NCBI GenBank assembly: GCA_964471795.1
Contig: CAYYHM010000007.1
Location: 1,221 to 65,220, forward strand
DNA length: 64,000 nt
Origin: an uncultured Chitinophagales bacterium
GTDB lineage: Bacteria; Bacteroidota; Bacteroidia; Chitinophagales; S012-47
Reading direction: 5' to 3'
Shown here: piece after piece, positions 21,767 to 57,977 of the stretch
Position numbering within the stretch: position 1 is the first letter of the stretch
Layout of the letters: the number at the start of each line of letters is the position of its first letter
Translations under genes and position numbers: made by a program
The notes under the pieces: model-generated
Database searches by the model: none
Told to the model about the DNA's origin: nothing
What the model saw: only the letters and a program-made list of their open reading frames with translations

Positions 21767-21820
21767 CCACCGCTGCTACCTGATAACTGATAAAGGGCTG
21801 CCGAAAGGCGGCCCTTTTTT
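21738..21820. repeat. 83-bp direct repeat, copy 1 (last 9 codons and stop of the giant gene, plus its terminator)
   Basis: Aligns without gaps to 25847-25929 at a constant offset of 4109 nt. 80 of 83 positions are identical; the mismatches are at 21772, 21791 and 21813. Confidence 0.95.
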
Positions 21821-25846: not shown

Positions 25847-25929
25847 TACAGCAGTTCAAGGTGGTGAAATTGTAACCACCCCTGCTACCTGATAACTGAC
25901 AAAGGGCTGCCGAAAGGCGGCGCTTTTTT
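25847..25929. repeat. 83-bp direct repeat, copy 2 (non-coding relic of the giant-gene 3' end plus terminator)
   Basis: See copy 1. It begins 3 nt after the BNR gene stop. The hairpin AAAGGGCTGCC-GAAA-GGCGGCGCTTT plus T6 is retained. The T-tract overlaps the stop codon (25928-25930) of the convergent hydrolase gene. Confidence 0.95.
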
Positions 25930-26758: not shown

Positions 26759-26829
26759 GTGGTATGTGGTTTCTCGTTTTTAGTTTATGGATTCGGTTAC
26801 CTAAAAATACCCGTTTCAGGCAACAGAGT

Positions 26830-26908
26830 GCCGTACAGTGATATGCGATGTGCGTACAGCGATATGCGATTTGCGTACAGCGATATGCGTACAGCGATTT
26901 GCGACAGC
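26830..26908. repeat. Degenerate tandem repeat (GCGTACAGCGATATGCGATTT-type units of 21 and 14 bp)
   Basis: gccgtacagtgatatgcgatgt / gcgtacagcgatatgcgattt / gcgtacagcgatat / gcgtacagcgattt / gcgacagc, read directly from the sequence. Intergenic. Confidence 0.85.
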
Positions 26909-27055
26909 AGAGGATCGACCAACCTTAAAAACGGTCAACGCTATTTAGGGATGGTCAGGCAACTGGCAACCCACAACTAAGGATTGATAATCCAATATAA
27001 CTGGGAGATTGCCATGCCTGAGGCGGACAAGCCACGGTCGTTCCTCCCTCGCAAT

Positions 27056-27145
27056 AAACCTTGAACCTTGAACCTTAAACCTTGAACCTACCTGCGGCAG
27101 GCAGGCTTGCTTTGAACCTTGAACCTTGAACCTTGAACTCCAAAC
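27056..27145. repeat. Heptamer microsatellite arrays (AACCTTG)n flanking the conserved core CCTACCTGCGGCAGGCAGGCTT
   Basis: aaaccttgaaccttgaaccttaaaccttgaaCCTACCTGCGGCAGGCAGGCTTgctttgaaccttgaaccttgaaccttgaactcc. The 11-mer GGCAGGCAGGC is at 27096-27106. The element lies about 85 nt upstream of the polyprenyl synthase start. Confidence 0.9.
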
Positions 27146-28219: not shown

Positions 28220-28675
28220 GTGAATTAGAAAATCAGAAAATTAGAGGATTAGAAAATGGGCCGAGCCGTTGTGGCGCAGTATTGCTAAGCGTGCTGCGAT
28301 CTACGATTGGCCTGCTGCTAGTCAGGTTACTCAGAACGGATATCCGACAACCGAGAACGCTGAAATAGTGAATTAGAAAATCAGAAAATTAGAGGATTAG
28401 AAAATGGGCCGAGCCGCTGTGAGCGCAGTGTCGGTGTGCGTGCTGCGAACTACTATTGGCCTGCGGCCAGTCAGGTGATTCTTAACGGACAACCCACAAT
28501 ACCCAACCGAGAACGCTGAAATAGCGAATTAGAAAATCAGAAAATTAGAGGATTAGAAAATGGGCCGAGCCGCTGTGGCGCAGTGTAGGTGTGCGTGCTG
28601 CGATCTACAATTGGCCTACTGCTAGTCGGGTGACTTAAAACAGACAACCGACAACGGATAACGGACAACTTGAAA
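28220..28675. repeat. Three tandem copies of a ~148-156-bp intergenic repeat
   Basis: Units start at 28220, 28368 and 28524. Each begins G(T/C)GAATTAGAAAATCAGAAAATTAGAGGATTAGAAAATGGGCCGAGCCG (an 8-bp sub-periodicity TTAGAAAA). A GC-rich middle follows (..GCGCAG..GTGCTGCGA..TTGGCCT..GCTAGTC.GGT), then a CCGACAAC-type tail. Confidence 0.9.
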
Positions 28676-28705
28676 CCCTTACACTTCGACAAGCTTAGTG
28701 TGACA

Positions 28706-28742
28706 CCAACTTCGAACTTCGAACATTGAACATTGAACTCTG
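28706..28742. repeat. Short heptamer array (CTTCGAA/CATTGAA)
   Basis: ccaacttcgaacttcgaacattgaacattgaactct, immediately 3' of the membrane-fusion gene stop. Confidence 0.7.
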
Positions 28743-32075: not shown

Positions 32076-32197
32076 TTTGTGGTTTATTGATTGTGGTGTT
32101 TAATTACCTCAACCTACAACCTACAATCCACAACAGATCGCCGACAACCGGCATCCGAGGTCAAACAACTGCAAACTTCAATATGCTTATTTGACGG

Positions 32198-32240
32198 CAA
32201 CTTTGAACTTTGAACCCTCAACCTTGAACCCCAAACCTCC
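32198..32240. repeat. Heptamer array (CTTTGAA/CCTTGAA type) upstream of the SOD gene
   Basis: caactttgaactttgaaccctcaaccttgaaccccaaacctcc, preceded at 32100-32135 by CAACCTA/CAACAG-type low-complexity units. Confidence 0.7.
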
Positions 32241-32329
32241 CCGCCAATTGAACTATTTTTGCATCCTCAGGTTTAGGAATACGAACTATCGACACAACTG
32301 TTTATTCACCCAAAAAAATAACGCATACC

Positions 32330-34905: not shown

Positions 34906-35003
34906 ATCACCATTCATTGAAAATCAGCCCATTCAGTTGGCACATTCGTTTTTCCCCCTTTTCTTAGCAGCATGCTCTTCCGGACATGCATCGCGGTATG
35001 CTG
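34906..35003 (+). promoter_or_regulatory. Conserved leader element, copy A (5' of, and overlapping, the annotated start of the 207-aa secreted-protein gene)
   Basis: atcaccattcattgaaaatcagcccattcagttggcacattcgTTTTTCCCCCTTTTcttagcagcatgctcttccggacatgcatcgcggtatgctgg. By eye about 90% identical to copy C (37923-38020), apart from the homopolymer block. Confidence 0.7.
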
Positions 35004-35609
35004 GAGATTGTTTTGTTTACTACCTCCAAAAAACCCTTCACTATTAAACACCTTGTCCCCGCTATCACTCTTTTGCTGGCTTCTTTCTTTTTCACCTCAG
35101 TAACAGCTCAGAACTGGTACAATCCCGGTGAAACCTATGTGTTCCAATCGCTTAGTGGCCATGATTATGGCCAGGCAGTGCAGGTACAGATAGTGTTTGA
35201 TAGTGCCGGGGTAGCTACAGTTTCCCAATCCTACCATACTGGCTCCGGTACTGATCAAATCCGCGGCTATTTCCGTGGCCGGCAGGGAGACTGGTCGTTC
35301 AGTGATAACACCTTGTCCATTCCCGGTAATGCGCCTTCCTATTTCCTGCTAACCCTGGACGATTTGCGAGTGTATGCCATCAATGGTGGTGCCATTTCAC
35401 TCCACTGTGCTTGCAAGGCCGGCACCGATGAAGAGGCTACCTGCGAAGTCTCCCTTGTGGTAGCTGAGGGTGGGCACCATCTTAGTCTGGCCTGTAGGTC
35501 TGCCTTAGGGTGCAGTAGCTGTATCAAGCCGGTTGTTTCATCCACAGGCTTGGGCGATTTCTCACAAGGATTCCTGATAATGCAGGCCACTTCGGTGGTA
35601 ATTGAGTGA
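34986..35609 (+). CDS. Secreted protein, unknown function
   Basis: 207-aa ORF with signal-like segment LVPAITLLLASFFFTSVTAQ. The start codon is uncertain because the first ~6 codons lie inside the conserved leader. Cys-rich C-terminal half. Confidence 0.55.
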   Translation: MHRGMLEIVLFTTSKKPFTIKHLVPAITLLLASFFFTSVTAQNWYNPGETYVFQSLSGHDYGQAVQVQIVFDSAGVATVSQSYHTGSGTDQIRGYFRGRQGDWSFSDNTLSIPGNAPSYFLLTLDDLRVYAINGGAISLHCACKAGTDEEATCEVSLVVAEGGHHLSLACRSALGCSSCIKPVVSSTGLGDFSQGFLIMQATSVVIE

Positions 35610-35650
35610 GTTTCTATAGCGGTTGAGCGGGGCGATTTTCGTACCTTGTA

Positions 35651-36172
35651 GTGATGCGTCCGCTTCTGTTTCTTTTTTCCATAGGATGGCTGTTGGGTTG
35701 TAAATCATACCCGCCATTGCCCACTGTGGCATCGGTAGATTTAGAACAATATGCAGGTACCTGGTATGAGATAGCCAGCTTCCCTAGTCGTTTCCAGCGG
35801 GGGTGCCATTGTACCACAGCTACGTACACCTTGCATCCCAAAGGTTATGTGGTGGTAGAGAATCGCTGCAACCGCGATAGCACCACCGGCAAGGAGAGCT
35901 ACATCAAGGGCAAGGCGTTTGTGGTAAAGGGCAGTGGCAATGCCCGTCTCAAGGTGCAGTTCTTTTGGCCCTTCCGGGGCGACTACTACATCATCCATCT
36001 CGCCAGCGATTATCGCTATACCCTGGTAGGCTCACCCAGCCGCAATTACCTGTGGTTACTGAGTCGTACCCCGCAGCTGCCGGCATCCGACATCGACACA
36101 TTGCTACAAGCCGCCAAGGATGTAGGTTTCGATACCAGCCGATTGGTTTTTACGGTGCAGGAGGGGTGTTGA
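35651..36172 (+). CDS. blc: Bacterial lipocalin (Blc-like outer-membrane lipoprotein)
   Basis: 173 aa. Lipobox SIGWLLGC. Lipocalin signature YAGTWYEIASFPSRFQRGC. Confidence 0.85.
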   Translation: MMRPLLFLFSIGWLLGCKSYPPLPTVASVDLEQYAGTWYEIASFPSRFQRGCHCTTATYTLHPKGYVVVENRCNRDSTTGKESYIKGKAFVVKGSGNARLKVQFFWPFRGDYYIIHLASDYRYTLVGSPSRNYLWLLSRTPQLPASDIDTLLQAAKDVGFDTSRLVFTVQEGC

Positions 36173-36255
36173 GTGGTGAAATTGATCTTCTTCCTTGTAA
36201 TAAAAACGCCCCTTACGATAGGTAAGAGGCGCCTTGCATTTTTGGAGGTGGCGGA

Positions 36256-36345
36256 TCACAACTTCCCCACCATCTTTTCCGGCTACACTTAGCGGTCAAA
36301 TTCTTCTTCAGTCAGTAGCTCCAGTGCCAGGGTTGCTTCCTTTAA
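36256..36345 (-). pseudogene. Relic of a fumC 3' end (about the last 28-30 codons, with two internal stops)
   Basis: My minus-strand translation is ..[27 protein letters not shown], against the intact fumC C-terminus ..[29 protein letters not shown]. 36259-36283 is identical to 39331-39355 (25 nt) and the rest is diverged. A hairpin/T-run at about 36205-36245 precedes it, as at the intact gene. Confidence 0.8.
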
Positions 36346-36481
36346 AATTGATGGTACAAGTACTTATGTGAAGTGACAGTAATGGGTAAGGGATTGCCAT
36401 ACTAATGTTAAGAAAGTATTTAATCGACATTTGCGACTAAATAAATAGTGAAAAATATCCACATACTCTTGACAAAGTCAA

Positions 36482-36574
36482 TTTTTTTTTTTCACTTTAG
36501 TACCATGCTCTTCCGGAAATGCATCGCGGTATGCCGAAAAGCGAATAGAGTAGGCTCACTTAAACACCACAATC
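36482..36574 (+). promoter_or_regulatory. Conserved leader element, copy B (runs up to the ATG of the 171-aa lipoprotein gene)
   Basis: T11-cactttagtacCATGCTCTTCCGGAAATGCATCGCGGTATGCCGAAAAGCGAATAGAGTAGGCTCACTTAAACACCACAATC-ATG. Nearly identical to copy C over the last ~70 nt. Similarity stops at the start codon. Confidence 0.7.
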
Positions 36575-37090
36575 ATGAAAGTATCAATTATTTTGATTGC
36601 CCTTTTAGTTGGATTAACAGTGGGATGTAAAAAGGAAGATATTGGAGCTTCCACAAATAACCAGTCTCAATCCAACAAATTCAATGCACCTGTTTATGAG
36701 AAGATCAAATTCTGCGTAAAGCATAGTGGCAATTCTCAATGTTACGTTACGCCATGTTCGCCATGTGATTGTCCTTTAGGTATATGTTTAATTAGGACAA
36801 GGCGGTATGGATCAGGCTTAAGTGTAGATGAAATTCAGGATGGGTATGGAACAGGTAATGCCTATTTTGATACTACCTATAACGAGGTAATGATAGTTTT
36901 TGACCAGGCTACTGCATTACCGGATTCGACAATTCCTGTTACTACTAATAATCGGGTATGGGATCAAAACAATGATATTGTTCAAAATTTCGGTTATGAT
37001 TCAATAGTGTTTGATGTTGGCTCTTATCCAGTGAACTTTGACAGCTTACCATACGGTTTTGTGATTCTGCCATATGTGGCTTATAAGTGA
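36575..37090 (+). CDS. Small Cys-rich lipoprotein, unknown function
   Basis: 171 aa. Lipobox LVGLTVGCKKE. Cys cluster CYVTPCSPCDCPLGIC. Low GC (a sampled line is about 37%). Confidence 0.6.
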   Translation: MKVSIILIALLVGLTVGCKKEDIGASTNNQSQSNKFNAPVYEKIKFCVKHSGNSQCYVTPCSPCDCPLGICLIRTRRYGSGLSVDEIQDGYGTGNAYFDTTYNEVMIVFDQATALPDSTIPVTTNNRVWDQNNDIVQNFGYDSIVFDVGSYPVNFDSLPYGFVILPYVAYK

Positions 37091-37122
37091 GTTATCGGAT
37101 TTCCTTACACTTTAAAATTTCT

Positions 37123-37155
37123 CATCCATAGAAGCTATGATAGCTTCTATGGATG
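37123..37155. terminator. Perfect 15-bp-stem hairpin (terminator-like, no T-run)
   Basis: CATCCATAGAAGCTA-tga-TAGCTTCTATGGATG. Confidence 0.5.
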
Positions 37156-37165
37156 GGCTTTCGAT

Positions 37166-37819
37166 ATGATGTCAAGACTGTTAATCGTTCTCGTACTTCT
37201 CAATGTTGCCTCGTGTAGGCCCATTCAACAATGGGTATTTGGTTTTAGGATCATTACCGAATTTGAGCCTGAGAAAAGCGTCACCTTCATGCAGAAAATG
37301 GGGATTGACCAGCCGCTTATCTATGTAGATGCCGATTTATACAATCAATACCAAAAGGAGCAGCAGTACAATTGGTTGGCTATGGATAGGTCAATGCAGC
37401 CGATGCAGATGCGTATGTACAATCAGCAAGGTGACTTAGTAGGCTACACGGTAAATTGTGTTACCGGCATGGATCAAAACAGGAAGCTTGATTGGTTCAA
37501 GGACTACCATAGCGAATGTGTGTTGGACAGTTTTGGACAGGAAGCTTATGTAGGGTTCACGCCACCGCCTACCCTTCAGGAAGAAGTGAGATACTGGGTG
37601 GCTGAGGAGCCAATTGTCATTGATTCCTCCAAGCAGCATGTAGTTGTCTATTATTCCAGGGTAGTCATGAAACAGAATATACACTTGGTAGAGGAGGTGA
37701 AACGTAGGTTTGGGCATTGTGAGGACGTGAACATTATCTACGTATCCCTTGAAGAGGTGATAGCTAAGTGGTTTTCTGATACGTTGGAGTATTATCCCCC
37801 AGTGGAGGATGACAAGTAA
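37166..37819 (+). CDS. Lipoprotein, unknown function
   Basis: 217 aa. Lipobox VLLNVASCRP. No catalytic motif recognised. Confidence 0.55.
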   Translation: MMSRLLIVLVLLNVASCRPIQQWVFGFRIITEFEPEKSVTFMQKMGIDQPLIYVDADLYNQYQKEQQYNWLAMDRSMQPMQMRMYNQQGDLVGYTVNCVTGMDQNRKLDWFKDYHSECVLDSFGQEAYVGFTPPPTLQEEVRYWVAEEPIVIDSSKQHVVVYYSRVVMKQNIHLVEEVKRRFGHCEDVNIIYVSLEEVIAKWFSDTLEYYPPVEDDK

Positions 37820-37922
37820 TGAGAAGAACAGCTTATGCCTAATGAATGTGTAAGCGAGGGATAGGTACAACGTACGCTGGGGCCTGCTTCCTCATTGCAT
37901 AGTCACACATCGCTGTACTTAC

Positions 37923-38054
37923 ATCACCACTCATTGAAAATCAACCAATTCATTTGGCACATTCGTTTTTTTTTCTTAGCGACATGCTCTTCCGGAAAAT
38001 GCATCGCGGTATGCCGAAAAGCGCATAGAGTAGGCTCACTTAAACACCACAATT
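37923..38054 (+). promoter_or_regulatory. Conserved leader element, copy C (full length, runs up to the ATG of the 146-aa lipoprotein gene)
   Basis: atcaccactcattgaaaatcaaccaattcatttggcacattcg-T9-cttagcgaCATGCTCTTCCGGAAAATGCATCGCGGTATGCCGAAAAGCGCATAGAGTAGGCTCACTTAAACACCACAATT-ATG. The upstream half matches copy A and the downstream half matches copy B. Confidence 0.7.
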
Positions 38055-38495
38055 ATGAGAAATTTACCATTCTTGCTACTCATTTTTTTAGCGATTATCG
38101 CATTTGGATGCAATAAGGCAACCACTGAATTAGATTCAGAATCAACCATAATCAGTGGAAAGAAAAAAGCAGTTGATATCACTATTACATCCAACGAAGG
38201 TTGCCTGATCCGGATTCAAGGAGATGTTGAGTTTACTATATTGCCACCAGAAATTACAGGATTTACGGGTACAATTACATTCTTAGGGGGTGGGGCGAAT
38301 TGTCCAACAGGAGTGCTTACGTTTGGTATGATTTCTAGTGGTCAAGATCTGACCATAAGCTTGGATAATTCCAATCCATGTTTAGCCACAGTAATTACAT
38401 GGTCGGGTTCATTCAGTCAAGAGATTCAAATCCTTCAGCAACTCAATATTCAGAATACCTTGCTGGCTGAGTTTGAGGCAATAACTGATTGCTAG
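38055..38495 (+). CDS. Small lipoprotein, unknown function
   Basis: 146 aa. Lipobox LAIIAFGCNKA. Confidence 0.6.
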   Translation: MRNLPFLLLIFLAIIAFGCNKATTELDSESTIISGKKKAVDITITSNEGCLIRIQGDVEFTILPPEITGFTGTITFLGGGANCPTGVLTFGMISSGQDLTISLDNSNPCLATVITWSGSFSQEIQILQQLNIQNTLLAEFEAITDC

Positions 38496-38508
38496 AAATC
38501 AACCGCAT

Positions 38509-39204
38509 ATGCTACACAGGATTATCATTTTCTTGTTTGTGACCAGCTGGGCGATTCTACCCGGCTGGTCGCAAATCTATTCTGCCACCTATCGATACAC
38601 GTTCAACACATTGGAAGAATTGATAGAACAGGTGAAAGAACCACAACAAGCAGCCACGTTTGTACTCCCTCTAAAGCTGGTTGTGGACTACACGGTGATT
38701 ACTGATGGAAGCAAGTACCTCGTCTCAGGCAAGCAAATATCTGCCGAAGGTTTGGGACTCGGATTCCATCAGCAAGGCCCCATTCGTGCTTTTGCCGATA
38801 TTTCTTCGGGTAAGGTAGTGTTGCAAGCAGATGATGGTCATTTTGGTGCCCCATCGTGGCTGTATAGCTATATGGTGGGGAAGCAACTTCCATCTGACCC
38901 AAATCACATCACCTACCAACTAGCAGCACCCGATAGTGGGTATACCGTTACTTTTTGTGATACCATTCCTCCAGCCATTCATCCGGTTACGCCTATTAGA
39001 GGCGCCACGGGAGGAGTTACGGCTATCCGGTCACAATTAGTGGAATGGGATCTGATGGGTTGGCAGAGGATACAGCGATTTCCTGCTCCCTGGCCAGACT
39101 TCCCAATGGGCAAGCCTGCTACTGACCAATTTTTCAAAATGCTTCCAGACGAAGCCACCATGTGGCAAAAAGTGAAAGCCGACTGGCAAAATGGTCAGCG
39201 GTAG
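38509..39204 (+). CDS. Secreted protein, unknown function (weak resemblance to the GLPGLI family)
   Basis: 231 aa. Signal peptide MLHRIIIFLFVTSWAILPGWSQ. The segment TFCDTIPPAIHPVTPIRGATGGVTAI is only loosely like the AWF..IP...GP..F.GLPGLI region. Confidence 0.5.
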   Translation: MLHRIIIFLFVTSWAILPGWSQIYSATYRYTFNTLEELIEQVKEPQQAATFVLPLKLVVDYTVITDGSKYLVSGKQISAEGLGLGFHQQGPIRAFADISSGKVVLQADDGHFGAPSWLYSYMVGKQLPSDPNHITYQLAAPDSGYTVTFCDTIPPAIHPVTPIRGATGGVTAIRSQLVEWDLMGWQRIQRFPAPWPDFPMGKPATDQFFKMLPDEATMWQKVKADWQNGQR

Positions 39205-39281
39205 GCAGTTGTGAGAGTGATCACTTTGGCTATCCTCATGTGGTCGTCAATACGATAAGTGATTATGCTGTCACCAAAAGC

Positions 39282-39318
39282 AAAAGGCCCTTCACCAGGG
39301 CCTTTTGCGCATTTTTTA
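39282..39318. terminator. Bidirectional terminator between the island and fumC
   Basis: AAAAGGCCCT-TCACC-AGGGCCTTTT followed by GCGCATTTTTTA. Confidence 0.75.
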
Positions 39319-39328
39319 TGGCTGTAGT

Positions 39329-40726
39329 TTACAACTTCCCCACCATCTTTTCCGGTATTACTATCCGGTCGAATTCTTCCTCCGTCAACAGGCCCAATTG
39401 CAGGGCGGCTGCTTTCAGGGACGTGCCTTCGGCATGGGCTGTCTTGGCTATCTTGGCCGCATTGTCGTACCCAATGTGGGTGTTCAGGGCCGTTACCAGC
39501 ATCAGTGAATTGTTGAGGTGTTCCTTGATGCGCGCATAGTTGGGCTGTATGCCAATAGCGCAGTGGTCGTTGAACGACACACAAGCATCCCCAATTAAGC
39601 GGGCACTGTGCAGGAAGTTGTAGATCATCATCGGCTTGAACACGTTCAGCTCAAAGTGGCCGGTGGCGCCACCCACGTTGATGGCTACATCGTTGCCCAG
39701 CACTTGCGCACACACCATGGTCAAGGCTTCTGATTGGGTAGGGTTCACCTTACCCGGCATGATGGAGCTGCCCGGCTCATTCTCAGGGATGATGATTTCA
39801 CCAATGCCACTGCGAGGGCCGCTGCTTAGCATGCGGATGTCGTTACCGATCTTCATCAGGCTCACGGCCAGCGTCTTTAAGGCACCATGTGCTTCCACAA
39901 TGGCGTCATGTGCTGCCAGGGCCTCGTACTTGTTGGCCGCACTGCGGAAGGGAAGTCCTGTCAGGTCGGCAATATGAGCCGCCACCTTGTCGGCATAGCC
40001 TTCCGGTGTGTTGATGCCTGTGCCTACGGCCGTGCCACCCAGTGCCAGTTCGCTCAGGTGATCCAGCGTGTTGCGCAGGGCTTTCATGCCGTGGTCCAGC
40101 TGCGCCACATAGCCGCTGAACTCCTGCCCCAGGGTAAGCGGAGTAGCATCCATGAAGTGGGTACGGCCAATCTTCACCACCTTCCAAAATTCTTGGCTCT
40201 TGGCTGCCAGCGTATCGCGCAGCAGCTGCACACCCGGCAGGGTGGTCTCCACCACCATTTTGTAGGCGGCTATGTGCATGGCAGTAGGGAAAGTATCATT
40301 GCTGCTCTGGCTCTTGTTCACATCATCGTTGGGGTGGAGGGTCTTGCCGCCATCACCCAGGGTGCCGCCATTGAGTACGTGGGCGCGGTTGGCAATCACT
40401 TCATTCACGTTCATGTTGCTCTGCGTGCCGGAGCCGGTTTGCCACACCACCAGCGGAAACTGGTCATTCCACTGACCTGCCAATATTTCGTCACACACCT
40501 TACCAATCAGCGTGGCTTTTTCTGCCGGCAACACACCACAGTCGCGGTTGGCCAGGGCGGCAGCTTTCTTCAGATAGGCAAATGCCTCCACGATTTCCTG
40601 TGGCATACGCTGACGTTCGCCACCAATCTTGAAATTCTCCAGGCTGCGCTGTGTCTGTGCGGCCCAATACTTGTCGGCAGGTACCTGCACCTGCCCCATG
40701 GTGTCTTTTTCTATTCTGTAGCTCAT
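39329..40726 (-). CDS. fumC: Class II fumarate hydratase
   Basis: Signature [16 protein letters not shown]. The N-terminus [28 protein letters not shown] is typical. The start is set at ATG 40726; the track's 40852 start adds 42 non-homologous residues that overlap the neighbouring gene. Confidence 0.95.
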
Positions 40727-44966: not shown

Positions 44967-45028
44967 TAAAGAGGAGAGTAGGAGCTCATTAAAAATAGTC
45001 TGCTAGAAAAGTGCTGATAGCTGTAGAC

Positions 45029-45107
45029 CTGACAGGTTTTCAAAACCTGTCAGGTCTACAGCTATCCAAAATAAACCTCCAAGGTTTCAAAAACCTTGGA
45101 GGTTTGC
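45029..45107. repeat. 79-bp double-hairpin element, copy 1
   Basis: CCTGACAGGTTTTCAAAACCTGTCAGG...AAACCTCCAAGGTTTCAAAAACCTTGGAGGTTT. 74 of 79 positions are identical, without gaps, to 54851-54929. In this copy the first palindrome extends to 45025-45059 (17-bp arms). Confidence 0.95.
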
Positions 45108-45364: not shown

Positions 45365-46390
45365 ATGAAACACCTCATCCTCACCCTATTACTTGGCTGC
45401 ACTGGCCAACTCACCTTCAGCCAAACCAATAACTGGGCTCCGGTAGGAGCGAAGTGGATGTACAATTACATCTATTGTAATACTGACCCTTACTGTGGAT
45501 ATGCCATTTTTGAATCCATTGGGGATACTACTATTCTGGGTAAAACTTGTCGGAAGGTTCGTAGAGAAGAGGTTTTACTTGACTCAAACGATACCTTTTG
45601 GGCCACAGGCTCTTCTTTTTATTCGGACTCAATTCTTTTTATTTATGAGGATAGTGGGCAAGTGAATGTGTATGACAAAGTCAACAGCGAATTCTTTACC
45701 CTGTATGATTTTAGTTTAGGCGCTGGTGACTCATTAATTATAGCTGATACATTGACCAGCAGAGGCTTTGTAGGAGCGCATTGCAATCCAGCCTGGCCCG
45801 AAAAGAATGTAAGGTTTTGTTACCCCATAGCCTATAAGATTGAAAGGGATACACAGGTGATGATCAATGGTACCAGTCATTATGCGCAAATTCCGGCTCG
45901 TGATGCTTCATATCAGGGGAAACAAAGTGGATTGGGTTTCGGGGAAAATTTTTTACTTGTTGAAGGTATTGGTGCTACTGGTCCCAACTTATTTGGATAC
46001 GATCCTAATAGTCTATTATTATATCCTATGGCTCCAGGCCGCCTTTTATGCTATACCATTAAAGATTCTGTGGTATGGAATGATCCTGCAGTCGATTGTC
46101 TGAATTTAACTACCGTACCTACAATAGAGCAAAAATCAGCTATTGTGGAAGTGTTTCCCAATCCCAACAACGGCACTTTCCAGTTGGTGCTTGAAGAAGA
46201 GGTACTACAAAAGGCGCAGGGCAAAATAGGTTATAAAGTATTGGATAGCACCGGGCGTACAGTCCATACGGGGAATATTTCCTCTATAGAAACCACTGTT
46301 AGTTTACCGGCATTGCCGGCAGGGGTGTATTTATTGCACTTTCCAAGTACAGCCTACAATACTACACCAATTATTATTCAATACCCATAA
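45365..46390 (+). CDS. T9SS cargo protein, unknown function
   Basis: 341 aa. Signal peptide MKHLILTLLLGCTGQLTFSQ. CTD VFPNPNNGTFQLVLEEE...LPAGVYLLHFPSTAYNTTPIIIQYP. Low GC (a sampled line is about 40%). Confidence 0.75.
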   Translation: MKHLILTLLLGCTGQLTFSQTNNWAPVGAKWMYNYIYCNTDPYCGYAIFESIGDTTILGKTCRKVRREEVLLDSNDTFWATGSSFYSDSILFIYEDSGQVNVYDKVNSEFFTLYDFSLGAGDSLIIADTLTSRGFVGAHCNPAWPEKNVRFCYPIAYKIERDTQVMINGTSHYAQIPARDASYQGKQSGLGFGENFLLVEGIGATGPNLFGYDPNSLLLYPMAPGRLLCYTIKDSVVWNDPAVDCLNLTTVPTIEQKSAIVEVFPNPNNGTFQLVLEEEVLQKAQGKIGYKVLDSTGRTVHTGNISSIETTVSLPALPAGVYLLHFPSTAYNTTPIIIQYP

Positions 46391-46402
46391 GAAACACATT
46401 TC

Positions 46403-47995
46403 ATGAAAAACCTTTCTTATATCACCTGGCTCCTACTATCCCTTCAGATCATTCTAAGTGCGCAGGTGCAGGCCCAGCCACATCTTACCAAAACTGATTT
46501 CTTCGGTGGAAGCGGCTATGATGGGATATTTACAGGCTATCCTACTGCCGAGGGATGGCTATTGGTAGCTACCACTACCAGCACTGATGGTACGGTTTCC
46601 TGCACCAATACCAGTGTACGAGGGCATACCTGGGTGATACAATTAGACACTGCTGATCAGGTGGTATGGCAGCAGTGCTACCCACAAAATGAGGGTACAG
46701 TGCCTTGGTTTATTGAGCCTTATGGTGATGGTACGTACATTATTTTTGGCGAAAGCCGGGAAGATACCACCCTATTGCCCTGCCACAAAGGCTCAGATGA
46801 CCTCTGGCTGCTGCATATCGATAGCCTGGGGCAGCAAATCAGCCAACATTGCTTTGGGGGTAGTGCTATTGAAAAGGTATACGACTTCAGGAAAACTAGT
46901 CAAGGTACATACATAGTGGCTGCCCGAAGTCATAGTTCTGATGGTGATTTATCCCCATACTACGCGTCTACCTTTGTAGAAGATGCCTGGGTGTTTGAGT
47001 TGGACAGCTTCTTCAATATCACCTGGTCCTTGCAATGGGGCGGTACTTCCTACGACCAGGCCAATGCCATAGCCGAACATCCACACGGTGGCTATGTGGT
47101 GGCAGCTAATAGCAACTCCAGTGATGGCGATGTATCCACCAATACCGGGAAATCAGACCCCTGGCTATTGCGGTTAGACACAGCCGGGCAGGTAGTATGG
47201 CAAAAGCACTATGGCAAGCCTACCCATGAAGACAATCTGCACCTGCTCGTTGACAGTGCCGGTTATAGCTACCTGGCCATGGAGTCCGATCCGATACAAG
47301 GGGTGAAGGGCGGAGCCGATATCCGGCTAATGAAAATAGACACACAAGGCAATGTAGTATATGATACCTACGTAGGCGGCAACTGGGAGGAGCGTATTGA
47401 TGACTTTAAGTGGCTCGAAGGTAATCTGTTGATTGCAGGGGGTAGTAATTCTACCGGGGATGGTGTACCCGGAAATTATGGTGGACAGGATATATGGTTG
47501 GCCGTTGTTGATACCCAATTGCAGGTGTTACGATCAAATCATTATGGGGGGAGTTCCTCAGACAGAGTTTACAGTATACAAATACAGGAGAACAGAGTTA
47601 AATCATTCGGGTTTACGAAATCGGTTGATTATGATTTTTCAAGTAATCCTTTCAATATTGGACCCAGTGGCAAATGGGTAGGTATATTTTGCGAATGGAT
47701 TTCTTACCCGGTCGGTATTCCCATACCAGATAAGCAAGAATCTATTGGCGTACAGCTATACCCCAATCCCAGTAACGGCACATTCCAATTGGTGCTTGAT
47801 GAAGAGGTACTACAAAAGGCTCACGGGAAAGTAGACTATCAAGTATTGGATAGTACTGGTCGTACTGTCCATACTGGGAATATTTCCTCTATAGTAACCT
47901 CTGTTAATTTACCCGCATTGCCGGCAGGGGTGTATTTATTGGACTTTCCAAGGACAGCTTACCATGCTATACCAATTCTTATTCAATACCCATAA
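46403..47995 (+). CDS. T9SS cargo protein with ~55-60-aa beta-propeller-like repeats
   Basis: 530 aa with a signal peptide. Repeats of the type GG(S/T)xxDxxxxI...GGYxxA..S.SSDGDVS...G..D.WLL.LD..GQVVW. The CTD is 62/79 identical (my count) to that of the upstream gene. Confidence 0.75.
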   Translation: MKNLSYITWLLLSLQIILSAQVQAQPHLTKTDFFGGSGYDGIFTGYPTAEGWLLVATTTSTDGTVSCTNTSVRGHTWVIQLDTADQVVWQQCYPQNEGTVPWFIEPYGDGTYIIFGESREDTTLLPCHKGSDDLWLLHIDSLGQQISQHCFGGSAIEKVYDFRKTSQGTYIVAARSHSSDGDLSPYYASTFVEDAWVFELDSFFNITWSLQWGGTSYDQANAIAEHPHGGYVVAANSNSSDGDVSTNTGKSDPWLLRLDTAGQVVWQKHYGKPTHEDNLHLLVDSAGYSYLAMESDPIQGVKGGADIRLMKIDTQGNVVYDTYVGGNWEERIDDFKWLEGNLLIAGGSNSTGDGVPGNYGGQDIWLAVVDTQLQVLRSNHYGGSSSDRVYSIQIQENRVKSFGFTKSVDYDFSSNPFNIGPSGKWVGIFCEWISYPVGIPIPDKQESIGVQLYPNPSNGTFQLVLDEEVLQKAHGKVDYQVLDSTGRTVHTGNISSIVTSVNLPALPAGVYLLDFPRTAYHAIPILIQYP

Positions 47996-53309: not shown

Positions 53310-54814
53310 GGATAGTAATGCGGATTATTGGATTACTCATGTTCTACCTGGGGCTGGGCATCACACTCCATGCCCAGCAACCCTTTGCCTATCCCATAGA
53401 CTTTGAAGATAATGTGGAGACAGCAGGGCAAATGACCATATATAATGATACAGTCTATTTTTTATCAAAGGGTTGGTCGCAAACGGATACACTGCGAAGG
53501 CGAAAAATGGTTCTACAGGCCTGTGATTTGGAGGGGCAGGTGATTTTTCAGCAAAAGCTATTTGGAGACGATATGCATAGCTATCAACCCGCCCCCTTCA
53601 ATGAACTACCGGTAACCAATGACGGTCACTTTCTGGTAGTAGGTATGCGAAATGATTTGATCAGCCCCACCCATCAGGCGGACATCTTTGTGGCGAAGGT
53701 GACCCGGCAGGGCGATACGGTGTGGACGAAGACCTACCCGCGGTACAACACCAGCGAGTGGCCCTTTGCTATTGGGTATAGCCCCAATGGGATGCTCATT
53801 ATCACCGGTGCCCGTAACAAACCGGGTGGTGACCTGGATGGTATGATTGTAGCCATTGATACCGCTACAGGTCAGTTTTTATGGGAGAATTATATTGACT
53901 ATGGAGAGCATGATGGATTTTCCGATTTGGAATTTGATTCTACAGCCATGGAAATCATTGTTAGTGGAGGTACACTGGCCTCTGGTATGAGTGGTTTTAA
54001 AGGTATGTTATGGTATTTTGATTATAGTGGGAAGTTTTTGCGTTCTAAGATGCTTTCCGGTCTGGAAGCTGGAGGTATTTCTCATTTGGCAAAGGCATTT
54101 GGAGGTCATGTTTCATTACAAAAAACACTCACCAATACTTTCGAGTACTATCCCCATCGCATCAGAAAATATAACCAAAACTGGAATGTACAATGGACCA
54201 CTATGATAGATGACCTGGGTGACGATTCAGAAATTGCTGAGGTATTTACCCTACCAGATGGGTCGATATGGATGGTAGGCTGGGCGTACACCAGTACCCA
54301 GCAGTATGCACAGGCGCTGAAGCTGGACAGTACCGGTACCATTGTGTGGCACAGGCGCTACTTCAGCAAGGATGTCACCGGCAGTAGTCCGCTCATCAAC
54401 TACGCCAACTACTACCCCGGCCCCAATGCCGTGTATGCAGTGGGTACCGTTACCGGTCCCGGGCAGAACAACAGCGACTCCTGGCTGGTGCGCTTCGATA
54501 GCATGGGCTGCCTGGTCCCCGGCTGCGATACGCTTTACACCGGCACGGCTCCCATGCCTTTCCAACCTGCCACCCTCCACATCTACCCCAACCCCGGCAC
54601 CACACAACTCACCATCGACCTGCCACCGGATTGGATCACCACCGCCACCCACCTACAGCTCCGCAACCTGCGCGGACAGATCGTCCACCACCAAGCCACA
54701 CAAGGCAACCTCCGTCAAACCGTAGCTACAGGTCATCTGCCTGCCGGCCTCTACCTCGTAGAGGTATGGAGTTCGGATGGTATGCTGGGCAGGGAGAAGT
54801 GGGTGAAATTGTGA
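53306..54814 (+). CDS. T9SS cargo protein with beta-propeller-like repeats
   Basis: 502 aa. The ATGA start/stop overlap with the upstream gene suggests translational coupling. Repeats are of the type D.FVAKVTRQGDTVWTKTY, DGMIVAIDTATGQFLWENY and DSWLVRFDSMGCLV. CTD LHIYPNPGTTQLTIDL...LPAGLYLVEVWSSDG. Confidence 0.75.
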   Translation: MRIVMRIIGLLMFYLGLGITLHAQQPFAYPIDFEDNVETAGQMTIYNDTVYFLSKGWSQTDTLRRRKMVLQACDLEGQVIFQQKLFGDDMHSYQPAPFNELPVTNDGHFLVVGMRNDLISPTHQADIFVAKVTRQGDTVWTKTYPRYNTSEWPFAIGYSPNGMLIITGARNKPGGDLDGMIVAIDTATGQFLWENYIDYGEHDGFSDLEFDSTAMEIIVSGGTLASGMSGFKGMLWYFDYSGKFLRSKMLSGLEAGGISHLAKAFGGHVSLQKTLTNTFEYYPHRIRKYNQNWNVQWTTMIDDLGDDSEIAEVFTLPDGSIWMVGWAYTSTQQYAQALKLDSTGTIVWHRRYFSKDVTGSSPLINYANYYPGPNAVYAVGTVTGPGQNNSDSWLVRFDSMGCLVPGCDTLYTGTAPMPFQPATLHIYPNPGTTQLTIDLPPDWITTATHLQLRNLRGQIVHHQATQGNLRQTVATGHLPAGLYLVEVWSSDGMLGREKWVKL

Positions 54815-54850
54815 GACTTTCAAAAATTGTTGATTTATAGGGTTATAAGT

Positions 54851-54929
54851 CCTGACAGGTTTTCGAAACCTGTCAGGTCTGACGATATCCAAAATAAACC
54901 TCCAAGGTTTCAAAAACCTTGGAGGTTTG
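54851..54929. repeat. 79-bp double-hairpin element, copy 2
   Basis: CCTGACAGGTTTTCGAAACCTGTCAGG...AAACCTCCAAGGTTTCAAAAACCTTGGAGGTTT. See copy 1. Starts 36 nt after the stop of the last T9SS gene. Confidence 0.95.
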
Positions 54930-57774: not shown

Positions 57775-57872
57775 GTTGTTCATTTGGTGGAAAAAGAATG
57801 ATGATGACTAACTGCCTTCCTGTTATTTTGGATGCCGGACATTGGATGTTGGACGTTTGACAATTGACCGAC

Positions 57873-57977
57873 AACTTTGAACTTTAAACTTTAAACTTTA
57901 AACTTTAAACTTTGAACCTTGAACCTACCTACGGCAGGCAGGCTTTGAACCTTGAACTTTCAACTTTGAACTTGCAC
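57873..57977. repeat. Heptamer microsatellite arrays (AACTTTA/AACTTTG/AACCTTG) flanking the core CCTACCTACGGCAGGCAGGCTT
   Basis: aactttgaactttaaactttaaactttaaactttaaactttgaaccttgaaCCTACCTACGGCAGGCAGGCTTtgaaccttgaactttcaactttgaacttgc. The 11-mer is at 57933-57943. The element overlaps the track's 5' end of meaB. Confidence 0.9.

What the first reader, a model, noticed from the sequence alone, without database searches (positions are those of the whole stretch)
34906..38054. A conserved ~70-130-nt leader is shared by three unrelated small secreted-protein genes, and its similarity stops exactly at the ATG
Copy C (37923-38054) is full length. Its upstream half matches copy A (34906-35003) at about 90% by eye. 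Its downstream half matches copy B (36482-36574) almost perfectly, right up to the start codon (..GTAGGCTCACTTAAACACCACAAT(C/T)ATG).

The downstream coding sequences encode 207, 171 and 146 aa. I could align them at neither the nucleotide nor the protein level, signal peptides included.

At one fixed position the three copies carry different homopolymer blocks: T5C5T4 at 34948-34961, T11 at 36482-36492 and T9 at 37966-37974.

The element could be a shared promoter plus 5' UTR (cis-regulatory RNA or regulator binding site) with a slippage-prone spacer. It could also be a portable expression module in front of exchangeable cassettes.
Basis: seen in the sequence. Interest (0 to 1): 0.6.

Follow-up and report, generated by a model that had tools for sequence, protein, structure and literature searches.

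The report
Shared pseudoknot leader before secreted-protein genes
Three unrelated small secreted-protein genes share a duplicated promoter and leader, and in two of them its conserved core is a catalogued but functionally uncharacterised RNA motif of Bacteroidota (Rfam DUF805b) that folds as a small pseudoknot about 20 bases before the start codon.

Summary
Three leader copies (A 34906-35001, B 36482-36574, C 37923-38054) share 92-97% identical blocks. Similarity ends at an ATG, and the proteins are unrelated by BLASTP.

The downstream half of B and C matches Rfam DUF805b (RF02914). B scores 35.6 bits, exactly the gathering score; C scores 31.6. Copy A is truncated and lacks the motif.

About 280 further instances from Bacteroidota genomes and viral contigs show three things.
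- The motif is an H-type pseudoknot. P1 and a loop-to-tail helix P2 (GCC/GGC) both covary.
- Its 3' end lies 18-24 nt before the AUG, separated by a G-poor spacer that carries the phylum's normal start-site signature.
- It precedes exported proteins, secretion-system cargo, outer-membrane barrels and bacteriocin precursors. In viral contigs it precedes ParB-like and methyltransferase genes. DUF805 genes were not among the common families.

It follows promoters at variable distance or sits directly after an upstream stop codon, so it acts as RNA.

I infer a portable cis-acting 5'-UTR expression element, probably acting on translation initiation in these Shine-Dalgarno-less bacteria. That mechanism is untested.

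The homopolymer tracts are identical in five other assemblies. Genes B and C lie in a low-GC islet flanked by a duplicated fumC 3' end.

The parts
34906..35001 (+). Leader copy A. It has the promoter-proximal half and the hairpin, is cut off at GGTATGC and has no pseudoknot.
   Evidence: D11, D13; no DUF805b or R1 match.
34937..34943 (+). TTGGCAC, a sigma-54-like -24 box in copy A. It is followed by N5 and then TTTT, not the canonical TTGC.
34949..34962 (+). T5C5T4 tract of copy A.
34972..34991 (+). Hairpin AUGC-(UCUUCCGGACAU)-GCAU, copy A.
   Evidence: Read from the sequence. The pairing is inferred; no covariation is available.
34986..35609 (+). Gene A, 207 aa, with a Sec-type signal peptide and no Pfam family. 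An alternative in-frame start at 34998 lies on the last conserved bases.
36482..36574 (+). Leader copy B.
   Evidence: D10, D13, D16.
36482..36492 (+). T11 tract of copy B, unchanged in five other assemblies.
36505..36524 (+). Hairpin AUGC-(UCUUCCGGAAAU)-GCAU, copy B.
   Evidence: Read from the sequence. Rfam does not recognise the equivalent stretch of copy C on its own.
36524..36555 (+). DUF805b-type pseudoknot, copy B. P1 is (U)CGC 36524-36527 paired with GCG(A) 36541-36544. L1 is GGUAU 36528-36532. P2 is GCC 36533-36535 paired with GGC 36553-36555. L2 is GAAAA 36536-36540. L3 is AAUAGAGUA 36544-36552; A36544 is counted here and as the optional outer P1 pair.
   Evidence: Rfam RF02914 at 35.6 bits, equal to the gathering score; R1 at 32.1 bits, E = 1.4e-8; family covariation.
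36556..36574 (+). 19-nt spacer and translation initiation region of B, without G. The A run at -14 to -12 and A at -3 fit the Bacteroidota pattern.
   Evidence: PMC6847099.
36575..37090 (+). Gene B, a 171-aa lipoprotein with GC 0.37. Its only homologue is 56% identical.
37923..38054 (+). Leader copy C, the full-length copy.
37954..37960 (+). TTGGCAC, a sigma-54-like -24 box in copy C.
37966..37974 (+). T9 tract of copy C, unchanged in three other assemblies.
37984..38004 (+). Hairpin AUGC-(UCUUCCGGAAAAU)-GCAU, copy C.
38004..38035 (+). DUF805b-type pseudoknot, copy C. P1 is CGC 38005-38007 paired with GCG 38021-38023. L1 is GGUAU 38008-38012. P2 is GCC 38013-38015 paired with GGC 38033-38035. 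L2 is GAAAA 38016-38020. L3 is CAUAGAGUA 38024-38032.
   Evidence: Rfam RF02914 at 31.6 bits, below the gathering score of 35.6, E = 2.8e-6; R1 at 29.3 bits, E = 1.2e-7.
38036..38054 (+). 19-nt spacer and translation initiation region of C.
38055..38495 (+). Gene C, a 146-aa lipoprotein with GC 0.39 and no homologue outside its own organism.

Best explanation
**What it is.** The shared leader is a duplicated promoter-plus-5'-UTR module. Its conserved functional core, present in copies B and C only, belongs to the Rfam DUF805b/DUF805 clan.

**Shown here:**
- The core is a 32-nt H-type RNA pseudoknot. A 3-6 bp stem P1 encloses a loop, and the loop's GCC pairs with a downstream GGC to form P2. 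The unpaired segments GAAAA and AGAGUA are nearly invariant.
- It is transcribed as part of the mRNA and ends 19 nt before the start codon. The family range is 18-24 nt.
- A G-depleted spacer follows, carrying the usual Bacteroidota start-site signature (A at -11 to -14 and at -3).
- Across the phylum and its phages the same unit precedes unrelated genes, mostly exported proteins and peptides.

**Inferred:**
- It is a portable, cis-acting expression signal. In these bacteria ribosomes do not use Shine-Dalgarno pairing.
- It most likely helps the 30S subunit engage the start region, or protects the mRNA just upstream of the ribosome footprint. Either would give accessory, often horizontally acquired, genes efficient expression whatever the promoter or upstream cistron.

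**In this window:**
- A promoter region with a sigma-54-like TGGCAC box (copies A and C), a T-rich tract and a small upstream hairpin were copied along with the core.
- Copy A kept only that upstream part and starts translation at or near the former L1/P2 junction AUG.
For: **Membership**
- Rfam cmscan scores 35.6 and 31.6 bits.
- Both copies match the 19-base consensus exactly, with 0 matches expected by chance.
- My own covariance model gives E = 1e-8 and 1e-7, and finds no other copy in the 64 kb window.

**Structure**
- 97.2% of cells are paired, against 84.3% in shuffles. The covariation score is 0.318 against 0.064, reached by 0 of 500 shuffles.
- The third P1 pair occurs as AU 71, GC 40, UA 19 and CG 15.
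- In the unfiltered set 176 of 187 instances are complementary at that pair. The shuffle mean is 87 and the maximum 108.
- P2 was tested with scans that left both sides free (analysed). Of 26 instances that depart from GCC/GGC, 18 keep full pairing: UCC/GGA 9, ACC/GGU 3, CCC/GGG 2, and one each of UCC/GGG, GCC/GGU, GGG/CCU and GUC/GAC.
- Of the other eight, two pair at two of three positions and six look like chance matches inside coding sequence.

**Position**
- The distance from the motif end to the ATG peaks at 21 nt. Of 192 instances with a downstream ORF, 146 fall at 18-24 nt.
- The spacer has at most 5% G at most positions, 75% A at -12 and -13, and 62% A at -3. This matches PMC6847099, section 15.

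**RNA-level placement**
- Canonical TAnnTTTG boxes lie at variable distances upstream, with the closer ones about 10-50 nt from the motif.
- In 24 of 62 viral cases an upstream same-strand ORF ends within 5 nt of the motif.

**Gene set**
- Type IX secretion sorting domains in 10-11 proteins, outer-membrane beta-barrels in 8, and bacteriocin or lanthipeptide leader families in about 8.
- 77 of 121 unique genomic proteins have a signal-peptide-like N-terminus by a crude heuristic.
- In viral contigs, ParB-like proteins in about 15 of 53 and DNA methyltransferases in about 12 of 53.

**Portability**
- L090 carries 97-98% identical leaders before unrelated proteins.
Against: - No experiment or transcript map was available, so the transcription start site and any effect on expression are untested.
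- Viral loci carry about one copy per 9-14 kb and the window only two. The motif was not seen before housekeeping or capsid genes. That fits a gene-specific regulatory site as well as, or better than, a general enhancer.
- Tandem units in Lewinellaceae, Saprospiraceae and Paludibacter and the near-invariant loops are also typical of binding sites for a ligand or protein.
- Copy C scores below Rfam's gathering threshold.
- Both window copies have a 5-nt L1 instead of the usual 4.
- The diverged strain carries a G-to-A change in the almost invariant L2.
- Minimum-free-energy folding of the leaders is no better than shuffles, with z between +0.9 and +1.5. That method cannot model pseudoknots.
- G-U wobble pairs do not clearly outnumber A-C mismatches, so base-pair types alone do not prove that RNA rather than single-stranded DNA folds.
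Confidence: 0.55

Rival explanations
1. The pseudoknot is an operator for a conserved trans-acting factor. This could be an RNA-binding protein, or a small RNA pairing with AGAGUAGGC. The factor would switch translation of a regulon of exported and accessory genes on or off, and phages would have captured the site.
For: - Near-invariant unpaired nucleotides: GAAAA, AGAGUA and a GG-rich L1.
- One copy per phage region, at particular genes.
- Directly abutting tandem units in several lineages.
- A coherent exported-protein gene set.
- A co-occurring sigma-54-type promoter in one Flavobacteriaceae gene family. The sigma-54 regulon of F. psychrophilum includes exported proteins of unknown function (PMC9723704).
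Against: - No candidate factor was identified and no neighbouring gene is conserved.
- The phage genes (ParB-like, methyltransferase) do not fit an envelope regulon.
- The motif is constant across several classes of the phylum, which also fits recognition by the ribosome itself.
Confidence: 0.25
2. It is a small-ligand riboswitch aptamer with a preQ1-I-like H-type fold that senses a global signal such as a second messenger or an ion.
For: - Size and topology: about 32 nt, with an A-rich L3 crossing P1.
- Invariant loop nucleotides.
- Occasional tandem arrangement.
- A varied gene set with surface proteins and phage genes, reminiscent of second-messenger riboswitches (my own knowledge).
Against: - No expression platform. 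The 18-24 nt spacer is unconserved and G-poor, and no terminator follows.
- No metabolic theme among the downstream genes.
- Rfam lists it only as a candidate cis-regulatory motif.
Confidence: 0.1
3. The homopolymer tract between a -35-like box and CTTAGC makes the three promoters phase-variable by slipped-strand mispairing, and the shared leader exists to place the genes under that switch.
For: - The tracts differ among paralogues: T5C5T4, T11 and T9.
- A T-run followed by CTTAGC is also kept upstream of the 56%-identical homologue of B in another organism.
- The distance from TTGGCA, TTGACA or TTTGCA to CTTAGC is 15-20 nt, counted by eye from the sequence and the alignment.
Against: - T11 and T9 are identical in five independent assemblies, including a strain with three substitutions in the leader.
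- The boxes match neither the Bacteroidota sigma-A consensus nor a sigma-70 consensus.
- One tract is interrupted by C5.
Confidence: 0.1
4. The element acts as DNA. It could be a promoter for an alternative sigma factor, a target for RNA-guided transcription (dCas12f with sigma-E), or an attC-like recombination site that joins cassettes.
For: - Repeated copies stand before successive unrelated ORFs: the window, L084 and L090.
- The islet is flanked by a duplicated fumC 3' end.
- Weinberg et al. note that structured motifs in consecutive intergenic regions can be attC-like (PMC5737381).
- Bacteroidetes do have RNA-guided transcription (PMC13472631).
Against: - Two crossing helices covary.
- Orientation and distance to the downstream AUG are fixed.
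- Ordinary promoters lie upstream at variable distance.
- The sequence is the same across the whole phylum, unlike species-specific guide targets, which lie mostly upstream of susCD (PMC13472631, section 7).
- No integrase gene was recognised in the islet: the Pfam scan covered A207, the lipocalin, B171, D217, C146, E231 and the arylsulfotransferase.
Confidence: 0.05

Closest known systems
Rfam DUF805b RNA (RF02914), clan CL00115 with DUF805 RNA (RF03081). These are candidate cis-regulatory motifs. I recall them as coming from the Weinberg et al. 2017 survey, but I could not check this: the main text does not mention them and the supplements are not held.
   Same: - Copy B reaches the gathering score and copy C falls 4 bits short.
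- Same hairpin, same GCCGAAAAGC loop-and-stem block, same AGAGUAGGC tail.
- Same phylum.
- Same position upstream of a gene.
   Different: - L1 has 5 nt (GGUAU) instead of 4.
- The downstream genes are orphan lipoproteins, not DUF805 proteins.
- An extra upstream hairpin resembles the first hairpin of DUF805 only by eye (loop CCGGAAA against CCAGAAA). Rfam does not recognise that stretch of copy C alone.
- The cmscan structure line shows only the 4-bp hairpin. I cannot tell whether the original description included them.
preQ1-I riboswitch (H-type pseudoknot of about 34 nt next to the ribosome-binding site); comparison from my own knowledge.
   Same: Size, the two crossing helices, an A-rich third loop and a position just upstream of the start region.
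   Different: No sequence similarity, no Shine-Dalgarno sequestration, no queuosine-related genes and no evidence of a ligand.
5'-UTR mRNA stabilisers (E. coli ompA leader, Bacillus 5' stabilisers) and platform-binding pseudoknots such as the rpsO operator; comparison from my own knowledge.
   Same: A structured element in the leader of abundant envelope-protein mRNAs. A pseudoknot placed at the 5' edge of the 30S footprint.
   Different: - Those are species-specific hairpins or autoregulatory operators for single genes.
- This one is a phylum-wide module reused before hundreds of unrelated genes and in phages.
Cassette arrays with repeated structured intergenic elements: integron attC sites and the DUF1874 motif discussed in PMC5737381.
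   Same: A repeated element before successive unrelated small ORFs. The local low-GC islet is bounded by a direct repeat.
   Different: - The element sits on the 5' side at a fixed distance from the AUG.
- It also occurs singly behind ordinary promoters.
- No recombinase is nearby.

Membership tests
Rfam DUF805b (RF02914) | Covariance-model score at or above the curated gathering score of 35.6 bits. | tested here: met
   Copy B scores 35.6 bits, exactly the threshold. Copy C scores 31.6 bits, below it, with E = 2.8e-6 in a 3.6 kb search. Copy A has no match.
Rfam DUF805b (RF02914) | A short hairpin whose loop and 3' arm carry GCCGAAAAGC, followed by the single-stranded tail AGAGUAGGC. | tested here: met
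   Exact matches at 36533-36555 and 38013-38035, with 0 expected by chance. P1 is CGC/GCG, plus a U-A pair in B. The loop is one nucleotide longer than the consensus (alignment).
Rfam DUF805b (RF02914) | Location upstream of a DUF805-domain gene, the feature that gave the family its name. | tested here: not met
   Genes B and C have no Pfam family. Among 112 other downstream proteins, DUF805 is not in the 25 most frequent of the 40 families matched, so the association does not define the RNA.
Rfam DUF805b (RF02914) | Host in Bacteroidota or Chlorobiota. | tested here: met
   The window encodes proteins with type IX secretion C-terminal sorting domains. All but one of the listed genome hits come from Bacteroidota or Chlorobiota.
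DUF805b-type pseudoknot as defined here | The loop triplet is complementary to the triplet after AGAGUA (P2), and the motif's 3' end lies 18-24 nt from the AUG. | tested here: met
   GCC/GGC in both copies and a spacing of 19 nt.
Rfam DUF805 (RF03081, 68 nt: upstream hairpin plus a DUF805b-like unit) | A match of the upstream hairpin and linker to the model. | tested here: not met
   Submitting copy C 37975-38014 (hairpin, P1 5' arm, L1 and the first two bases of P2) gives no match with E up to 10. With the full leader only DUF805b is reported. The hairpin resembles the L088 members by eye only.
Sigma-54 (-24/-12) promoter | TGGCAC, then N5, then TTGC, with GG at -24 and GC at -12. | tested here: inconclusive
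   Copies A and C have TTGGCAC-ATTCG-TTTT, so the -24 box is perfect and the -12 GC is absent. Copy B has TTGACAA. Better matches (TGGCACG-N4-TTGA) precede the motif in 7 Flavobacteriaceae loci, and the reverse-complement control gives none.
Phase-variable homopolymer promoter | Tract length varies within or between populations. | tested here: not met
   T11 is identical in five Logan assemblies and T9 in three. Only consensus assemblies could be read, not reads.
Integron-like cassette array (attC) | An integrase, with imperfect palindromic sites at the 3' end of each cassette. | tested here: not met
   No recombinase domain in the proteins scanned: A207, the lipocalin, B171, D217, C146, E231 and the upstream arylsulfotransferase. 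The element is a pseudoknot on the 5' side of genes.
Metabolite riboswitch | Ligand binding and an expression platform. | not testable with these tools
   No terminator or sequestering helix appears in the spacer. Ligand binding needs experiments.

The most novel reading that the evidence does not exclude
The DUF805b pseudoknot is a structured ribosome-recruitment element, a bacterial counterpart of an internal ribosome entry signal. Placed at the 5' edge of the 30S footprint, it would replace the missing Shine-Dalgarno interaction for a class of accessory, exported-protein and phage genes throughout Bacteroidota. That would explain why it travels with genes and why leader similarity stops at the start codon.
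Probability: 0.25. Interest if true: 0.8.

Novelty: new member of a known kind. Interest (0 to 1): 0.45.

Why it matters
Bacteroidota ribosomes ignore Shine-Dalgarno sequences. How individual mRNAs obtain strong or selective translation in this phylum is only partly understood (PMC6847099).

This small pseudoknot is conserved across the phylum and sits at a fixed distance before start codons. It precedes exported proteins, bacteriocin precursors and phage genes. That makes it a concrete, easily mutated candidate for gene-specific control of translation or mRNA stability.

It is also a compact part that could be tested for engineering expression in gut and environmental Bacteroidota.

For this window the practical result is more modest. 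The finding is largely explained by a catalogued RNA motif plus local duplication of its promoter region.

Tried and rejected
- **Literature.** Searches for DUF805b, for DUF805 with 'RNA motif' or Bacteroides, and for the motif sequence found nothing on function. The Weinberg 2017 main text does not mention the motif and its supplements are not held. The supplements of the F. psychrophilum transcriptome paper had no hits.\n- **RNA-guided transcription (dCas12f with sigma-E).** Considered and rejected. Those targets lie mostly upstream of susCD and match genome-specific guides, whereas this motif is the same across the phylum and covaries as RNA.\n- **Sigma-70 promoter scan.** Nothing relevant, and this consensus does not apply to Bacteroidota.\n- **Minimum-free-energy folding.** The leaders are no more stable than shuffles. 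The method cannot model pseudoknots.\n- **Metagenome scan for the window's own L1 variant.** One unrelated contig (L214), a GG-leader peptide gene without the upstream core. The window-specific hairpin therefore could not be tested by covariation.\n- **Homologues.** C has none outside its own organism. B has one at 56% identity, whose leader keeps the T-run and CTTAGC but lacks the pseudoknot.\n- **Organism name.** Not recoverable. The cluster look-up gives only 'NCBI, 67,724-bp contig'.\n- **Structure prediction for hidden paralogy.** AlphaFold2 gave pLDDT 33 for B and 46 for C, which is unusable.\n- **Conserved upstream ORF.** Rejected. The A-run length difference shifts the frame between B and C (sequence).\n- **3-nt periodicity.** The motif-to-AUG distances show none.

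Full report
**1.

The sequence, the repeat finder and a three-way alignment show three related upstream regions.
- A 34906-34953 matches C 37923-37970 at 92%.
- A 34964-35001 matches B 36497-36534 at 92%.
- B 36517-36578 matches C 37997-38058 at 97%. The match ends one base after the ATG.

The 31-nt core and the 23-nt downstream block have zero matches expected in shuffled sequence. T5C5T4 is at 34949-34962, one base to the right.

The three proteins are unrelated by BLASTP, with a best E of 0.69, and have no Pfam family. B and C are lipoproteins. A has a Sec-type signal.

An in-frame TAG inside the conserved AGAGTAGGC lies 24 nt before each ATG of B and C. The leader therefore cannot be part of a longer gene.

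**2. Part of it is a catalogued RNA motif**

Rfam finds one family in the whole window. DUF805b (RF02914) matches 36523-36556 at 35.6 bits, exactly its gathering score. A more permissive scan adds copy C at 31.6 bits.

Copy A has no match. Its similarity stops at GGTATGC, whose ATG (34998) is in frame with the called start of gene A. Only B and C therefore carry the conserved core.

**3. What the motif looks like across nature**

An exact-pattern scan (GCCGAAAAGC, then 3-8 free bases, then AGAGTAGGC) found 77 viral contigs. All but one of the listed genome hits come from Bacteroidota or Chlorobiota. A sample of these loci scores above Rfam's threshold for DUF805b.

*Structure.* The search pattern left the 5' arm of the stem free.
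- 175 of 187 unique instances have the GC that pairs with the fixed GC.
- The next pair is complementary in 176 of 187, as AT 89, GC 33, TA 26 and CG 24. The shuffle mean is 87 and the maximum 108.
- On a 150-sequence alignment the named structure is 97.2% paired against 84.3% in shuffles. The covariation score is 0.318 against 0.064, reached by 0 of 500 shuffles. Sliding the 3' partners by one to three columns gives at most 41% paired cells and a covariation score of at most 0.059.

*A second helix crosses the first.* The loop triplet GCC pairs with the GGC that follows AGAGUA. Three viral scans left both triplets free and gave 77 unique instances.
- 51 are GCC/GGC.
- 18 keep full pairing through changes: UCC/GGA 9, ACC/GGU 3, CCC/GGG 2, and one each of UCC/GGG, GCC/GGU, GGG/CCU and GUC/GAC. 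Together these change all three positions of P2.
- Two pair at two of three positions.
- Six look like chance matches inside coding sequence.

The unit is thus an H-type pseudoknot. In order it has:
- P1, 3-6 bp;
- L1, usually GGAA;
- the 5' strand of P2;
- L2, GAAAA;
- the 3' strand of P1;
- L3, 6-13 nt ending in AGAGUA;
- the 3' strand of P2.

The cmscan structure line for RF02914 shows only the hairpin. I cannot tell whether the published description included the pseudoknot.

*Position.*
- 192 of 208 instances have an ATG-initiated ORF within 80 nt on the same strand.
- The distance from the motif end peaks at 21 nt, and 146 instances fall at 18-24 nt. The window copies are at 19 nt.
- The spacer is almost free of G, with 75% A at -12 and -13 and 62% A at -3. 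This is the initiation-region signature measured in F. johnsoniae (PMC6847099, section 15).

*What lies upstream.*
- The Bacteroidota -7 box TAnnTTTG occurs at variable distances.
- A sigma-54-type TGGCACG-N4-TTGA precedes one Flavobacteriaceae gene family, and the reverse-complement control has none.
- In 24 of 62 viral cases an upstream same-strand ORF ends within 5 nt of the motif. One example is Flavobacterium phage lillamy9-1, between gp40 and a ParB-like gene.

A unit that keeps its distance to the AUG but not to the promoter, and that works between cistrons, acts as RNA on the downstream start.

*Genes served.*
- In genomes, 77 of 121 unique proteins have a signal-peptide-like N-terminus by a crude heuristic.
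- Pfam and NCBIfam find type IX secretion sorting domains (10-11), outer-membrane beta-barrels (8), subtilases, and bacteriocin, lanthipeptide or other ribosomally made peptide leader families (about 8).
- DUF805 is not among the frequent families, so the name reflects the seed set rather than the biology.
- In viral contigs the downstream genes are ParB-like proteins (about 15 of 53), DNA methyltransferases (about 12) and small unknown proteins.
- There is usually one copy per 9-14 kb viral locus and there are two in this 64 kb window.

*Tandem forms.* In Lewinellaceae, Saprospiraceae and Paludibacter loci a second unit directly precedes the first, with its own complementary triplets (CCG/CGG, UCG/CGA, CCC/GGG). 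Rfam's 68-nt DUF805 model is an upstream hairpin (loop AGaCCAGAaA) plus a DUF805b-like unit. In L088 it precedes a 179-aa lipoprotein.

**4. Anatomy in the window**

Copy C reads, 5' to 3':
- a sigma-54-like TTGGCAC (37954-37960) followed by N5 and TTTT, without the canonical GC;
- T9, then CTTAGC;
- a hairpin AUGC-(UCUUCCGGAAAAU)-GCAU (37984-38004);
- the pseudoknot (38004-38035);
- a 19-nt spacer;
- the ATG.

Copy B has the same parts from the T-run onward. Further upstream it is only weakly similar, with TTGACAA in place of TTGGCAC. Copy A has the upstream half and the hairpin only.

The hairpin loop recalls the DUF805 hairpin and the first unit of the tandem forms. However, Rfam does not recognise the hairpin-containing stretch of copy C alone, and no relatives were found to test it. 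The 56%-identical homologue of B from another organism keeps a T-run and CTTAGC but has no pseudoknot. The promoter-proximal part and the RNA unit are therefore separable.

I could not assign the promoter type.

**5. How three unrelated genes came to share it**

- B, D217, C and E231 lie in a segment with GC 0.35-0.46, against 0.51 for the window.
- The segment is bounded by a degenerate direct copy of the 3' end of fumC. 36236-36342 matches 39309-39415 at 72%, with a 25-nt identical core, and only the right-hand copy is in frame. This is the footprint of an insertion into the end of fumC.
- Leader A lies outside the islet.
- The same pattern occurs in L090, where 130-nt leaders are 97-98% identical before two unrelated 141-aa secreted proteins.

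The simplest reading is that the leader is the conserved, selectable part. It is copied or recombined in front of fast-turnover accessory genes.

**6. Mechanism**

Shown: an RNA pseudoknot, fixed spacing to the AUG, a normal start region downstream, independence from promoter type, and reuse before unrelated genes and in phages.

Inferred: a cis-acting expression signal. I favour an effect on translation initiation. The 3' end at about -20 to -24 places the knot at the upstream edge of the 30S footprint, next to the A-rich -11 to -14 segment that lies near protein S1 (PMC6847099). A related possibility is protection of the mRNA 5' of the ribosome.

The main rival is an operator for an unknown regulator. 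It is favoured by the sparse, gene-specific distribution, by the tandem forms and by the invariant loops. A riboswitch is less likely because no expression platform exists. DNA-level roles are unlikely given two covarying crossing helices and the fixed relation to the AUG.

Phase variation through the T-tracts has no support. Tract lengths are identical in five other assemblies, one from a diverged strain.

**7. Verdict**

The finding is real and well described. Its core is a new member, with a slightly variant L1, of a known but functionally uncharacterised Rfam family, embedded in a locally duplicated promoter region. Interest is moderate. The family-level features assembled here (pseudoknot, spacing, gene set, phage use) make a testable case for a Shine-Dalgarno-independent leader element, but nothing in the window itself is unprecedented.

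Noticed in passing
window 36236-36342 and 39309-39415; islet about 36350-39300: A degenerate direct copy (72%, with a 25-nt identical core) of the 3' end of the fumarate hydratase gene flanks a low-GC segment (0.35-0.46 against 0.51). The segment carries genes B, D217, C and E231. It looks like the scar of an insertion into the gene's end, and no integrase gene is present.
   Followed up: partly
L090 (MAG NORP28), leaders before ATGs at reverse-strand positions 1521 and 3718: Two 130-nt leaders, 97-98% identical and including the DUF805b unit, precede two unrelated 141-aa secreted proteins. This is the same phenomenon as in the window.
   Followed up: partly
L099, L161, L168, L191, L122 (Lewinellaceae/Saprospiraceae); L088 (Paludibacter): Tandem double units. 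A first pseudoknot-like unit (for example GGA-GACCU-CCG-GAAAA-UCC-ACAAGAGUA-CGG) abuts the canonical unit. Rfam's 68-nt DUF805 model appears to be a hairpin-plus-unit version of this.
   Followed up: partly
L084 289-313, 2511-2535, 3548-3572: Three motif copies in consecutive intergenic regions before a patatin-like protein and two unknown proteins.
   Followed up: no
L087, L116, L126, L139, L141, L142, L157, L165, L183: A Flavobacteriaceae family of exported proteins (..VFVERGIEFFVF..) combines a sigma-54-type promoter (TGGCACG-N4-TTGA in most of these loci) with the motif about 20-40 nt downstream.
   Followed up: partly
window 27042-27139, 28700-28739, 32191-32257, 57865-57972: Short arrays of a 7-nt unit (CCTTGAA / CTTTGAA) recur in several intergenic regions (repeat families D3 and D5).
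   Followed up: no
window 21738-21820 and 25847-25929: An 83-nt element, 96% identical in two places, ends in a G+C-rich hairpin and a T-run. It lies just after the stop of the 4,900-aa ORF and of the ORF ending at 25844.
   Followed up: no
window 45025-45106 and 54848-54929: An 82-nt element (93% identical) made of two perfect hairpins (AGACCTGACAGGTTTT..AAAACCTGTCAGGTCT and AAACCTCCAAGGTTT..AAACCTTGGAGGTTT).
   Followed up: no
window 28222-28663 and 26824-26904: Tandem repeats: three copies of about 138-150 nt, and four copies of about 21 nt (GCGATnTGCGTACAGCGATAT).
   Followed up: no
window 7064-21766: A single ORF of 4,900 aa on the + strand. Two downstream genes (46403-47995 and 53306-54814) carry type IX secretion sorting domains. 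A 234-nt repeat (46157-46390 and 47762-47995, 88%) covers the C-terminal ends of two adjacent ORFs (45365-46390 and 46403-47995).
   Followed up: no
window 37121-37157: An 18-bp perfect palindrome lies between gene B and gene D217. It produced spurious microRNA hits in the permissive Rfam scan and is probably a terminator without a T-run.
   Followed up: no
window 36505, 36519, 36531 (B) and 37984, 37999, 38011 (C): Three AUG triplets sit inside each leader, which is unusual near Bacteroidota start sites. The reading frames they open differ between B and C because of the A-run length, so no conserved upstream peptide exists.
   Followed up: partly
L004/L005 (Logan SRR24907605, SRR33375173): A diverged strain of the same organism has GCCAAAAAGC instead of GCCGAAAAGC in copy B. 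This changes the almost invariant G of L2, and GAAT becomes GTAT after P1.
   Followed up: no
window 59581-61278 and 61361-62875 (- strand): Two adjacent class-I Glu/Gln-type aminoacyl-tRNA synthetase genes with different anticodon-binding domains.
   Followed up: no
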